64,000 nucleotides of DNA from Tubiluchus corallicola (lineage: Eukaryota > Animalia > Priapulida), in NCBI GenBank assembly GCA_030141605.1, contig JAQGDQ010000204.1, positions 310,001-374,000 of the forward strand, in the 5' to 3' direction. Under the pieces are notes generated by a model, which saw only the letters and a list, made by a program, of their open reading frames with translations, had not been told where the DNA came from and did not search any database. Shown piece by piece: positions 40,001-58,774 of this stretch (position 1 is the stretch's first letter; each line of letters begins with the position of its first letter). The position numbers were made by a program, and so were the translations under genes.

Positions 40001-43000
40001 GCTAGACCAATAACAGCCTGAAAATGCAGCGTAGAATAAGGTACTCCAATGGTTGAATTCTTCCCTCAGGTCTCCCACATATTTCAGAAAGCAAAGATTG
40101 CAAGACAAGGTGCTGTGTGACATTAGCTATGAAACATAAAATGTTACAAATTTTGAATTGGCATTTTCAAGTTTTTAAGTTCGAGTTGGCTGATTGTTTC
40201 ACAAATTATGACTGGATTGTATAGCTTATCCACATTTCTGCTGATCACCATGCATTTGAAAAACACTTGAGGCATTCCAACGTTGAAAAACAAGCAAAAT
40301 TCAACTTTTTATAATATTTATTTAATGTAACACACTTTTAAAAAGCCAATTTTATACTTCAGATGTTCCCAACTCTTCTATGCTAAATTATCTGTTTCTG
40401 CCATTAACTGAAACAGGGGCTGATGTGCAGTTATATTAACTTCCATGATTATTGTTTTGTTAGTTTGACTCTGATAACACATGATCAGTGATTACCTTTA
40501 ATGACAATTAACGGCGTGGTCAGTATTTTGTTTTATTTATCCATTGCAGTCCTATTTTAAGAGCCTTTTTTTCACTATTATTGCTTTTGAAATAAAGATG
40601 GGTTTATGTGATAGCAATTCAAACCTACAGGACAAACTAGTCTTTAAACAGACTCTAGAGCCATACATGTCTTCCTTGGTCTCTTATTAACAATAGTTAT
40701 AAAGACCATTAGATATTAGTAAAAGTTAAATGCTAATCACAATAATCGGCAGTTTTGCTTGCATTAATGGAGGACAGTACTATAGATAATTTTATAGCAT
40801 ATCTTTCTAGAATGCATAAATTAAATGTCACATTTTCATATATTCTGTATATATTGCTGCTGGCTAACATTTCGGTAACGCATAATAATGTTCAATTCTT
40901 CTTAACCTTTGTAAAATTATGTCTTGAAAGATTGTCAGTATTGCTCCAGCTAGTATTTCTGTAATCCTGTGCAATCAATAGTTAATCAGTCTGACGTCAA
41001 GCTTTTTGCTAATGTCACAGTAAATGAAAAGCTAATCATGCTGTCACTGGGTCGTTAATAAGTAGGTGCATTACAGTTATCTGATATGTGTACTCATTTC
41101 CACGTATATTACTGAATAAGAGATACAGGTAAATTAATTAGTTAGATTAGTTCTTATTCGTGTAGCTTGGGCAGATAGAAACTTGCTAATAAATGTATCA
41201 ACCAGGGCACCTTTCCAGCAACTGATTATTTATCGACCAACAAACGGTTCTTAAGGGTTGTACTTACACAGTGCAGTGTGTAGAATAGTTTGGAATTGTA
41301 GTACAGGTCAGCTTAGAAAACCATTGGAAACCTTGGTTGTTAGATATAGTTGTCTTTGCTGGCTATGATTGTAATATTCTTAGTTTTATATCTCTAGCAA
41401 CCTAATTTTTTTCATAATGATGACTGGCCATGTAAACCTTTCCCTGTACTTCATGTAGTCACACTTACAGAACGGATTCTTCTACAATTACCTTAATTAT
41501 CAATTTTAGACATAAAGACTGTTTTGTACATTTAATACGTACATTTCTGCAGGTTTATAAATCAACTTAGTTTGGACTTGTTACATATGTAGATCTATGT
41601 TCAGTATTCAAAATGATGTTCAAAGTTTAATCCAGCTGTTTCACTGGTACAAACTAATTCACAAAAGTTCCTTTTGTTTTGTAGTGTAATAGCGGGCTCG
41701 GTATGTTTTTGTCAGTATTTAGTTAGTTCTGATACAAAGCACATTTGCTACATGTGTCATAGAGGATCATAAGTATCAGTACGGAGGCCAGTTTTTCTAT
41801 CATTAAGTACTAAAATTCTGTTTCAGGATGCAAGAAAAGCAGCTTGTGATACCTCGCTCACCGCTGCCACAGCAAATATGGACCAAGTCGGTCGGATACA
41901 AATGCGTACTCGACGCACACTTAGAGGACATCTTGCCAAGATATATGCCATGCATTGGGGTTCAGATTCACGGTAACAACAGTTTTACAAACTAATACTA
42001 ACAGCTTTAAGTTACTAGCTTGAAAAGTTTTACGTACAGTACTTCAGTGTAATCATAACATTAAGCAGCTGACTGTACAGATTTTCTTAGTCCATTTGAC
42101 TAGTTCTGTATATTAGCTTCTTTCCTTTTCACTTAGCAATATTGTTTGACTGAATAAATGCTCTAATGTCCTTTCCTTGCCCTTTACACAGCAATTGCTG
42201 CAAACAATGTTGCAAAATTCTCTTATTAAGTGATGATACAATCTGGTTTGTTAGTACGTCATGTAATATTTTACCTTGTTGTGATTGATAATTTATGCAA
42301 TTTACATGCACCTCCGAAGGTGTGTTCGCTATTTAGCAATACAGTGGTTCTTCTGTAAATCCTCTGGAATATCGGAGGATATTTATAATTATTAACAAAA
42401 CTGAATACTTATTTTTCACTCATAATTAAAGAATGTATGACTGTACTGCGCATGGCAAGCTATGTCTGCATTGATGTAATCTGCCTAAAGAAAATGCTTT
42501 TTTATTTACAGAAATTTAGTATCAGCTTCACAGGATGGTAAATTAATAGTGTGGGATTCGTATTCGGGCAATAAGGTGAGCGAGTGTGTGTGCGCGTATT
42601 TGTCAGCTATGTCTATGTGTTTGCTTTTCGTTTCAGGTATTTGGTATCAGCATCACAAGATGGTAAATTAATAGTGTGGGATGTAATAACAACTAACAAG
42701 GTAAGCGTGCGGTGAAGCCTTACTAATACTGTTTCCATTAACATTCGTCGGTTTTTGTTGTGTGTGATGCTAACAGCGTTGTCTGCATGTACAGCAACAG
42801 TATGTTTAGAATAGTTTATGTTAGATTAGAGGATGGTAAATATTTGTGGTGCAGGATCCCATTATAGACCGGCCATTAATCTTCTCCAAGCAGGACAGGT
42901 GGCCGTGCTGGAAGAGCCTGAGCCGATTAGTATTTGGAGCATGTGCTGCATGCCCAAGAATTTTTATTTCCCTGCGAAAACCAGCTACCCTATTAAGTTT

Positions 43001-58000: not shown

Positions 58001-58774
58001 TGTGGAATTAGGACAGGCTTCTCGTGTTCTTGGATTTTGGAAAGGTTTACACTTTTTTGTTTTTTTTCCATTGGGTGTTACTTGTAGAGGATAAAACATT
58101 CCTGTCAGTCTATACTTTATTTTACTTTTCGTGCATTTCACAATTTAGCACTTAATTCTTTTAGGAAAATCAAATGATTTTGAACTGACTTGGAAATGTT
58201 TTTTCATCCAATGAACTCCCAGCAACATTTGTTTTAAGCATGACAGTATTAATTTTTTCAGTACAAAAATGTACTTGGCACGTTTTGTTTATGGCACTTA
58301 TTGTTACCATGGAGCTACAAGGAGCAAAATCAAGTACTTTTGAGATTCTGCAGAATAATCATTCTGCATGAATTATAGTTACTGCCAATAGGTGTCTCTA
58401 GGGGTATTGCATGTGTAGAACTTTTATATTATAAGAATGCAGTTTATTTGCAAATATTGCTTTCTTTGTAAGTTTACCATCGTTTTGTGTAAAGTGAAGC
58501 AGTGTTACCTATAAACTGCTCTAGAAAATAAACCCGTGCATGCTTGCTTTAATTTTTTACTTTCTTGTCAAGTAAAATTCAGAACCACTACTTTTACATA
58601 ATATGCTTTTTGACTCGAGAATTGTATAATGTTTCAAATGATTGCACTTGACTCTTGTTCTTTGCAGGCGTCCTCGCTGGACACGACAACAGAGTTAGTT
58701 GCTTGGGTGTAACAGATGATGGTACAGCGGTTTGTACAGGATCTTGGGATAGTTTCCTCAAGGTGTGGAACTAG
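34020..58774 (+). CDS. GNB1: Heterotrimeric G-protein beta subunit (GNB1-4 class), 341 aa, with duplicated alternative exons
   Basis: Exons 34020-34079, 41827-41972, [42512-42575 or 42637-42700], 52059-52137, 52346-52496, 52893-53022, 54080-54151, 55031-55247, [57905-58011 or 58668-58774] sum to 1026 nt (341 aa plus stop). All introns are GT-AG and phases are consistent. The translation closely follows G-beta1 (MSSELEQLR...[14 protein letters not shown]...GSWDSFL.VWN). Confidence 0.96.
36306..39420 (-). mobile_element. Decayed L2/CR1-group LINE in G-beta intron 1
   Basis: APE motifs [20 protein letters not shown] and [17 protein letters not shown] motifs [33 protein letters not shown] and [20 protein letters not shown]; 3' stem-loop aagggtggc...gccaccctt at about 36388-36429. 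Confidence 0.9.
41827..41972 (+). CDS. GNB1: G-beta coding exon 2
   Basis: [48 protein letters not shown](R); donor gtaaca. Confidence 0.95.
42512..42575 (+). CDS. GNB1: G-beta mutually exclusive exon 3a
   Basis: 64 nt; acceptor tttatttacag; [21 protein letters not shown]; donor gtgagc. Confidence 0.92.
42637..42700 (+). CDS. GNB1: G-beta mutually exclusive exon 3b
   Basis: 64 nt; acceptor ttttcgtttcag; [21 protein letters not shown]; donor gtaagc. Confidence 0.9.
49590..49790. promoter_or_regulatory. Candidate intronic enhancer or internal promoter with an RFX X-box and K50-homeodomain sites
   Basis: TAATCC at 49607-49612, TAAGCC at 49640-49645, TAATTA at 49651-49656, X-box GTTGCCATAGAAAC at 49719-49732; locally GC/CpG-enriched. 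Confidence 0.45.
50925..50991. repeat. CT-rich low-complexity tract
   Basis: cctctctccctctcactctccctctccttccctccctc... pyrimidine run. Confidence 0.8.
51050..51798 (+). mobile_element. Decayed Tc1/mariner transposon remnant
   Basis: 51418-51496 reads [25 protein letters not shown], matching the mariner/Tc1 WPPxSPDLNPLD motif with a frameshift; ends in gcacccgta; the left boundary is uncertain. Confidence 0.6.
52059..52137 (+). CDS. GNB1: G-beta coding exon 4
   Basis: [26 protein letters not shown]; donor gtaagt. Confidence 0.95.
52346..52496 (+). CDS. GNB1: G-beta coding exon 5
   Basis: [50 protein letters not shown](C); donor gtaaga. Confidence 0.95.
52893..53022 (+). CDS. GNB1: G-beta coding exon 6
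   Basis: [43 protein letters not shown]; donor gtaact. Confidence 0.95.
54080..54151 (+). CDS. GNB1: G-beta coding exon 7
   Basis: [24 protein letters not shown]; donor gtaagt. Confidence 0.95.
55031..55247 (+). CDS. GNB1: G-beta coding exon 8
   Basis: [72 protein letters not shown]; donor gtaggt. Confidence 0.95.
57160..57215. repeat. (CA)n microsatellite in G-beta intron 8
   Basis: Imperfect CA run of about 55 bp. Confidence 0.9.
57905..58011 (+). CDS. GNB1: G-beta alternative terminal exon 9a
   Basis: Acceptor tgtacatgcag; [41 protein letters not shown] at 58527-58532. Confidence 0.9.
58527..58532 (+). terminator. Candidate poly(A) signal for the exon 9a isoform
   Basis: AATAAA followed by a T-rich tract, upstream of the 9b acceptor. 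Confidence 0.6.
58668..58774 (+). CDS. GNB1: G-beta alternative terminal exon 9b
   Basis: Acceptor cttgttctttgcag; [35 protein letters not shown]; long AT-rich 3'UTR with AATAAA at 60046 and 61109. Confidence 0.92.

What the first reader, a model, noticed from the sequence alone, without database searches (positions are those of the whole stretch)
42512..58774. One G-beta gene with two independent exon duplications, allowing up to four isoforms that may retune one G-gamma-binding pocket
Seen: exon 3 (3a/3b) and the last exon (9a/9b) each exist as two intact, same-length, same-phase copies. In G-beta1 numbering, 3a/3b differ at 69 (N/Y) and 84-87 (SYSG vs VITT); 9a/9b differ at 309 (T/A), 322 (E/D), 325 (Y/T), 327 (L/V) and 337 (R/K). 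Established, from recalled structures: G-beta S84/Y85, M325 and N340 line the pocket for the G-gamma C-terminal NPF motif, and G-beta5 has Thr (T338) at the M325 position, linked to its binding of RGS GGL domains. Inference: both switches alter the same pocket at the blade 1/7 closure. The reciprocal aromatic pattern (Y85+T325 vs I85+Y325) predicts coupled use of 3a+9b and 3b+9a, giving splice-encoded G-gamma or effector selectivity in place of gene duplication. I know of no description of this architecture, but could not search.
Basis: partly seen in the sequence, partly recalled or inferred. Interest (0 to 1): 0.9.

Follow-up and report, generated by a model that had tools for sequence, protein, structure and literature searches.

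The report
G-beta gene with two duplicated exons
An invertebrate gene for the beta subunit of G proteins carries two pairs of duplicated, intact exons; RNA-like data show both versions of the last exon spliced in, and the gene likely makes tissue-regulated variants that are predicted to differ where the protein touches its alpha and gamma partners.

Summary
Exons 3a/3b (64 nt) and 9a/9b (107 nt coding) are intact tandem copies under purifying selection, and all listed residue differences are correct. The wiring needs correcting. In RNA-like contigs of a near-identical animal, exon 8 joins both 9a and 9b, and 9a plus 33 nt is spliced onto 9b. So 9a is a stop-carrying cassette, not an alternative last exon. 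Exons 3a/3b must be either/or for frame reasons, but no RNA covered them. RBFOX motifs cluster after 3b and 9a. The coupled 'one G-gamma pocket' idea is weak. Natural G-betas show no reciprocal 85/325 pattern, T86 bonds to G-alpha, and no phasing data exist. No second copy was found in 116 other loci, so the duplication looks lineage-restricted. Duplicated alternative exons are well known in G-alpha genes. RefSeq shows an exon-2-region swap in a copepod G-beta, and this scan earlier noted a different duplicated G-beta exon in another genome. Three paper searches found no description of this architecture. Verdict: new variant of a known kind, interest 0.5.

The parts
   Evidence: the loose end of an X1 contig before exon 2 matches its 3' end at 29 of 30 letters
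41827..41972 (+). exon 2 (146 nt)
   Evidence: X1 contig identical over the exon
42512..42575 (+). exon 3a (64 nt; N69, S84-Y85-S86-G87)
   Evidence: AG/GT intact
42576..42636 (+). 61-nt UG-rich intron between 3a and 3b; last internal A at position 40; next shortest intron of the gene is 208 nt
42637..42700 (+). exon 3b (64 nt; Y69, V84-I85-T86-T87)
   Evidence: AG/GT intact
42755..42766 (+). UG-rich stretch, candidate CELF/UNC-75 site; first 9 letters equal the unc-32 element
   Evidence: PMC3585155 abstract; function inferred
42784..42952 (+). two TGCATG (RBFOX-type) motifs at 42784 and 42947, 84 and 247 nt after 3b
52059..55247 (+). constitutive exons 4-8 (52059-52137, 52346-52496, 52893-53022, 54080-54151, 55031-55247)
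   Evidence: X1 joints e5-e6, e6-e7 and e7-e8 at the predicted GT..AG sites
57905..58044 (+). exon 9a: 140-nt cassette, coding to the stop at 58011 (T309, E322, Y325, L327, R337) plus 33 nt untranslated; weakest donor of the gene (4 of 9 match to the U1 consensus)
   Evidence: X1 joints e8-9a (2657 nt skipped) and 9a-9b (623 nt skipped)
58045..58667 (+). 623-nt GT..AG intron with three TGCATG motifs (58365, 58408, 58537) and one AATAAA (58527)
58668..58774 (+). exon 9b coding part (A309, D322, T325, V327, K337); untranslated when 9a is included
   Evidence: X1 joint e8-9b (3420 nt skipped)
58775..60765 (+). 3' untranslated region after 9b; true end not determined
   Evidence: X1 contigs cover 58670-58903, 58918-60305 and 60344-60765

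Best explanation
This is a canonical G-beta1-4-type gene of an invertebrate with two old tandem exon duplications, both kept by selection, that likely give tissue-regulated isoforms predicted to differ in how they hold G-alpha and G-gamma. Step 1 (shown from sequence): only one of 3a/3b can be in a coding mRNA, because both or neither shifts the frame to an early stop; the 61-nt intron probably also hinders joining them (inferred). Step 2 (shown in RNA-like contigs of one run): exon 8 splices to 9a or skips to 9b; included 9a ends the protein and is spliced onto 9b, which becomes untranslated. Step 3 (inferred from the recalled 50-55 nt rule): the 9a stop lies 33 nt before the last junction, so this mRNA would escape nonsense-mediated decay. 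Step 4 (inferred): RBFOX- and CELF-type factors bound after 3b and after 9a likely set the choice by tissue, probably in neurons or muscle. Step 5 (inferred): the ancestral S-Y-T-T loop was split; 3a changed the G-alpha-facing half (T86S, T87G) and 3b the other half (S84V, Y85I; G-gamma-facing by recall), while 9a/9b replaced the conserved M325 in two ways. The result would be graded changes in heterotrimer stability or membrane release, not a strict choice between gamma subunits.
For: Intact splice sites and frames; frameshift and stop if both or neither exon 3 is used. Purifying selection on both pairs. X1 joints e8-9a, e8-9b and 9a-9b match predicted GT..AG introns to the base. No such joints are listed for run X2, which has a contig running unspliced across the 9b acceptor (58474-59025). 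The three X1 coding differences that I checked in e8 and 9b are synonymous. TGCATG ranks first of 1,119 intronic hexamers near the alternative exons (6 in 1,664 nt against 7 in 21,811 nt). Three lie in the 623-nt intron against 0.32 expected from shuffles (p 0.002). C. elegans unc-32 is a precedent for two exon sets with CELF/RBFOX control (PMC3585155, abstract and section 15). Swapped residues fall on conserved sites: M325 in 251 of 270, T87 in 230 of 237; V84 and I85 in 0 of 237. D83/T86/N88 bond to G-alpha-s Q19.
Against: RNA support comes from one small run whose RNA status is a guess, as contigs only. The three exon-9 joints have 22-27 letters on their short side, below the tool's 31-letter bar; I read this as the normal overlap at graph branches (inference). 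Against flanks of constitutive exons the RBFOX excess is modest: p 0.014 to 0.15 over five window choices, and the regions were chosen after seeing the motifs. Several swaps are common natural variants (S86 in 65 of 237, D322 in 63 of 270, R337 in 104 of 270). No second copy in 116 other loci, so there is no cross-species conservation to lean on. Loss of the NPF Phe has only a minor signalling effect in cells.
Confidence: 0.6

Rival explanations
1. One reading: the two switches are coupled (3a+9b, 3b+9a) and remodel one G-gamma NPF pocket from both sides, selecting between G-gamma subunits or GGL domains.
For: The rarest residues lie at 84, 85 and 325, which by recall flank the NPF pocket. RBFOX motifs lie after both 3b and 9a, which could co-activate 3b+9a independently of the protein argument.
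Against: No covariation of 85 and 325 in 218 natural G-betas; Y85+Y325 exists. NPF is conserved among gamma subunits. N340 is kept in both copies and G-beta5 keeps an aromatic at 85. In unc-32 a UGCAUG after the second exon favours the first exon, and the two exon sets were described as independently regulated, so the motifs do not fix the pairing.
Confidence: 0.2
2. The isoforms are nearly equivalent proteins; the duplicates persist because each is used in some tissue, and the differences are tolerated drift.
For: Five of ten swapped positions alternate between residues seen in other G-betas (69, 86, 309, 322, 337). The duplication appears lineage-restricted.
Against: V84 and I85 are absent from 237 proteins and Y325/T325 occur once each in 270. 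Four of five exon-3 changes are adjacent while codons 70-83 have none.
Confidence: 0.15
3. One copy (3b or 3a) is a silent or decaying remnant, or the tandem copies are an assembly artefact.
For: Exon 3 has a weaker selection signal than exon 9 (p about 0.02).
Against: Synonymous divergence of 0.52 and 0.89 per site is far beyond allelic difference; both exon-3 copies have strong splice sites; both exon-9 copies appear in an independent data set.
Confidence: 0.05

Closest known systems
Duplicated alternative exons in G-alpha genes: vertebrate GNAO1 exons 7/8, amphioxus preGNAI exon 6, preGNAQ exon 5 and preGNAS last exons, fish GNAQ/GNA11 exon 4 (PMC5896119, passages)
   Same: Local exon duplication diversifies a heterotrimeric G-protein subunit at partner interfaces; lineage-specific; internal and terminal exons both affected.
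   Different: Here it is the beta subunit, with two separate events in one gene, and the terminal event works by a stop-carrying cassette.
KRAS exons 4A/4B (PMC9882654, passages)
   Same: Two homologous, stop-carrying C-terminal exons in tandem give two C-termini. That 4A is spliced onto 4B, which becomes untranslated, is recalled; the paper calls the pair mutually exclusive.
   Different: KRAS 4A was captured from NRAS and changes membrane targeting; here the copies differ at five residues in the last propeller strands.
C. elegans unc-32 exons 4a-c and 7a/b (PMC3585155, abstract and section 15)
   Same: Two sets of alternative exons in one gene, with UGCAUG after the second exon and a UG-rich element, giving tissue-specific combinations.
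   Different: Different protein; regulation shown by experiment there and only inferred here; its UG element lies between the two exons, the best match here lies after 3b.
RefSeq isoforms X3/X4 of the Eurytemora carolleeae G-beta (XP_023346256.1, XP_023346257.1)
   Same: One invertebrate G-beta with two same-length versions of one region (22 differences, all in residues 21-67), consistent with a duplicated exon 2.
   Different: Another exon; its genomic DNA was not examined; annotation only.
G-beta5 with R7-RGS GGL domains (PMC6310461, passages)
   Same: Exon 9b has Thr at 325, as G-beta5 is recalled to have at 338.
   Different: The window's protein is a canonical G-beta (about 90% identical to arthropod G-beta), ends in N340, and lacks G-beta5's loop insertions.

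Membership tests
G-beta1-4 type subunit | about 340 aa, N-terminal helix plus WD40 propeller, high identity to G-beta1 | tested here: met
   341 aa, 89-91% identical to the 30 nearest full-length G-betas; exons 8, 9a and 9b match PDB G-beta1/2 chains
Tandem-duplication mutually exclusive exons (3a/3b) | adjacent homologous exons of equal length and phase with intact splice sites | tested here: met
Tandem-duplication mutually exclusive exons (3a/3b) | both-in and neither-in forms are non-productive | tested here: met
   stops at residue 79 and 60 of the exon-2-onward frame
Tandem-duplication mutually exclusive exons (3a/3b) | each exon seen alone in transcripts | tested here: inconclusive
   neither exon covered by X1 contigs
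Alternative last exons by alternative polyadenylation (9a/9b) | upstream copy ends the transcript at its own poly(A) site | tested here: not met
   9a is spliced onto 9b in X1; a minor form ending near AATAAA 58527 is not excluded
Stop-carrying cassette exon giving a homologous C-terminus | inclusion, skipping and onward splice all seen; stop close to the last junction | tested here: met
   three joints in one run; 33 nt
RBFOX-regulated exons | UGCAUG cluster in flanking introns | tested here: inconclusive
   strong against whole-gene background, modest against constitutive exon flanks
RBFOX-regulated exons | splicing changes on loss of RBFOX or of the motif | not testable with these tools
   needs experiment
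G-beta5-like GGL-binding subunit | G-beta5 pocket residues and loop insertions | tested here: not met
   N340 kept in both copies and no insertions against G-beta1 numbering; G-beta5 84-87 equivalent is S-F-T-T; T338 and A353 are recalled, not checked
Docking-site/selector RNA pairing for exclusivity | intronic element pairing with each exon better than chance | tested here: not met
   best duplex with intron 2 matched or beaten by 85% (3a) and 37% (3b) of 300 shuffles

The most novel reading that the evidence does not exclude
One RBFOX/CELF programme switches both exons together, so that neurons or muscle make a 3b+9a G-beta and other cells a 3a+9b G-beta. The two forms would rebuild the G-gamma C-terminal pocket from both sides and shift the G-alpha N-helix contact: a G-beta subtype made by coordinated splicing across 15 kb instead of by gene duplication.
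Probability: 0.2. Interest if true: 0.75.

Novelty: new variant of a known kind. Interest (0 to 1): 0.5.

Why it matters
G-beta is among the most conserved animal proteins, and what makes its subtypes differ is a long-standing question. A gene that swaps only five residues at each of two partner-contact sites offers natural, selection-tested variants (V84/I85, S86/G87, Y325, T325) that can be tested directly in G-alpha, G-gamma and effector assays. With the copepod exon-2 case and the earlier arthropod note, it suggests that invertebrate G-beta genes repeatedly diversify by exon duplication, as G-alpha genes do. The mechanism itself is known, which caps the surprise.

Tried and rejected
No whole genome is held, so G-beta paralogues, G-gamma and R7-RGS genes of this animal could not be counted. 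The run search listed no holder on record as RNA; only X1 (RNA by guess, share 0.12) and X2. Exons 3a, 3b and 4 of this gene had no cover from X1's near-identical contigs. This is not evidence of silence: each exon-3 arm would be at most 124 nt, shorter than any listed record, and the tool filters records. The X1 exon-2 contig stops exactly at 41972, where 3a and 3b first differ. That fits a branch but comes from one study, so I did not count it. Contig depths (203 for 9a, 437 for e8-9b) were not used as expression levels. An inverted repeat between intron 2 (42264-42285) and exon 3b did not beat shuffles and was rejected. A single-sequence fold of a homologue (P0205) was poor (mean pLDDT 54.6) and was not used. 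No G-gamma sequence was in hand, so no complex was predicted. The protein atlas did not answer. Snow 1998 and 1999, Cheever 2008 and a 2005 RGS review were not held. Seven searches for residue-level contacts gave no paper naming Y85, M325 or N340 as G-gamma contacts; 10.1101/2023.08.29.555394 (passages) was uninformative. The G-beta tree (35 rows chosen by me, midpoint root) left the species unresolved. No look-alike stretch or same-genome note exists in earlier findings.
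Full report
Observation. The window holds one G-beta gene on the + strand from 34020 (start codon) to about 60.8 kb. Exon coordinates are in the parts list. 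Exon 3 and the last coding exon each occur twice, with intact AG/GT sites where needed, equal length and equal phase. All four combinations are open; the 3a+9b form is 341 aa and 89-91% identical to its 30 nearest full-length relatives among the proteins fetched. Both pairs are old and selected: exon 9 pS 0.89 and pN 0.105, exon 3 pS 0.52 and pN 0.175 (Fisher p 3e-13 and about 0.02). No third copy exists in the window.

Organism. It is an invertebrate without a close relative in the protein collection. In a 35-row G-beta tree it falls in an unresolved group, outside the arthropod clade (support 87/96) and the mollusc-brachiopod clade (100/99). The neighbouring HDHD3 gene has best hits of only 41-44% identity, to an annelid and a ribbon worm. 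No genome was held.

Exon 9 wiring. Run X1 (contigs; RNA by guess) comes from a near-identical animal: exon 2 is identical and the 3' UTR differs at 75 letters in a 1,388-nt contig, plus gaps. It shows no cover of unique intron DNA and has joints at the predicted introns e5-e6, e6-e7 and e7-e8. It also shows three exon-9 joints: e8-9a (2657 nt skipped), e8-9b (3420 nt) and 9a-9b (623 nt). The last matches a GT..AG intron at 58045-58667, 33 nt after the 9a stop. One 197-nt contig carries both e8-9a and 9a-9b. So 9a is a 140-nt cassette: included, it ends the protein and turns 9b into UTR; skipped, 9b is read. The short sides of these joints are 22-27 letters, under the tool's 31-letter bar. I take that as the normal overlap at a graph branch (inference), and the joints fit independently predicted introns to the base. 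No such joints are listed for X2, which has a contig crossing the 9b acceptor unspliced. By the recalled 50-55 nt rule the 9a mRNA would escape nonsense-mediated decay. An AATAAA at 58527 leaves room for a minor 9a-terminal form.

Exon 3 wiring. Using both copies or neither shifts the frame to an early stop, so productive mRNAs carry exactly one. The 61-nt intron between them has its last internal A at position 40, so the branch point is close to the 3a donor; steric hindrance is a known exclusivity mechanism (PMC3585155, section 15) and is inferred here. A docking-site pairing was tested and rejected. Transcript use of 3a and 3b remains unshown (see Tried and rejected).

Regulation. TGCATG is the top hexamer of 1,119 in introns near the alternative exons (6 in 1,664 nt against 7 in 21,811 nt). 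Two lie after 3b and three after 9a (shuffle p 0.046 and 0.002). Against flanks of constitutive exons the excess is weaker (p 0.146, 0.049, 0.014, 0.069 and 0.061 for five window choices), and I chose the regions after seeing the motifs. A UG-rich stretch after 3b shares its first nine letters with the UNC-75 element of unc-32. That TGCATG is the RBFOX site is supported by the same paper. The direction of the effect on exon 3 cannot be predicted: in unc-32 the motif after the second exon favours the first.

Protein consequences. Among 315 distinct G-beta-like proteins fetched (the 120 best of 1,209 and of 1,238 hits, plus listed members of 10 clusters), 237 showed the exon-3 block and 270 the exon-9 block. 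The common state is N69, S84-Y85-T86-T87, A309, M325, V327. Exon 3a keeps S-Y and changes T-T to S-G (G87 in 2 of 237). Exon 3b keeps T-T and changes S-Y to V-I (0 of 237 each). Both last exons replace M325 (251 of 270) with residues seen once each. A cryo-EM preprint lists D83, T86 and N88 as hydrogen-bond partners of G-alpha-s Q19 (10.1101/2021.01.11.426276, one passage). That 84, 85, 325 and 340 face the G-gamma NPF motif is recalled only. PMC8351738 (passages) confirms a G-beta hydrophobic pocket for that Phe and reports about twofold faster translocation but a minor signalling effect when it is removed. The reciprocal aromatic rule finds no support: of 218 proteins with both sites, one has Y85+Y325, one Y85+T325, and the three with C, L or V at 85 keep M325. 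G-beta5 has S-F-T-T at the 84-87 equivalent, and both copies keep N340, so GGL binding is unlikely.

Distribution. None held two copies: 115 had one and 1 was cut by a contig end. Forty span exon 2 to exon 4 with both introns (31 distinct exon-3 sequences). Sixteen span exon 8 to exon 9, nine of them with an intron there; none had a second copy. The sample is redundant, includes intronless genes and holds no close relative, so it shows only that the duplication is not general.

What is known. Duplicated alternative exons are described for several G-alpha genes (PMC5896119, passages). The human catalogue of 236 such events lists GNAO1 and no GNB1-5 gene (PMC8373072, passages and its one supplement). 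Three full-text searches for a G-beta case listed none, judged from titles and abstract starts; subscription journals and bioRxiv supplements are not covered. RefSeq isoforms of a copepod G-beta differ only in residues 21-67, and an earlier unchecked note of this scan reports a duplicated 72-nt G-beta exon in an arthropod. So exon duplication in G-beta recurs, but this pair of events and the cassette wiring of the last exon were not found described.

Verdict. A real feature and a new variant of a known kind. My odds: both pairs functional 0.9; tissue regulation by RBFOX/CELF 0.55; measurable partner-binding differences 0.6; strict coupling around one G-gamma pocket 0.2. Interest 0.5.

Noticed in passing
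run X1 laid on window 41875-52391 and 54141-55034: X1 holds a second, diverged spliced G-beta sequence (645-nt contig, 18 differences in 95 nt of exon 2; its exon 3 matches neither 3a nor 3b at 80%). It may be a paralogue in the same animal or another organism; a paralogue would undercut 'splicing in place of gene duplication'.
   Followed up: partly
proteins P0225/P0226 (Eurytemora carolleeae RefSeq isoforms): Two same-length G-beta isoforms differ at 22 residues, all within 21-67, as expected for a duplicated alternative exon 2.
   Followed up: partly
proteins P0265/P0267, P0269/P0272, P0264/P0008, P0268 (mosquitoes): Mosquito G-beta gene pairs differ by the same N69/Y69 change as 3a/3b, there by whole-gene duplication.
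   Followed up: no
proteins P0011/P0288, P0246, P0249, P0255, P0205: Several invertebrate G-betas have annotated 1-6 residue insertions at the exon 2/3 junction (near residue 68), pointing to further alternative splicing at this boundary.
   Followed up: no
window 14378-15112, - strand: Single-ORF HAD-family hydrolase, HDHD3-like, best hits 41-44% identical.
   Followed up: partly
window about 3858-7663, + strand: Exons of a phospholipase A2 / lysophospholipase (PLA2_B match at 6937-7227).
   Followed up: no
window about 37100-39400, - strand (intron 1 of the G-beta gene) and about 18000-19900, - strand: Broken LINE-like retroelement remnants; RVT_1 match at 37503-38117.
   Followed up: no
window 11665-12150 and 57156-57215: Long CT/GA microsatellite and a CA repeat.
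   Followed up: no
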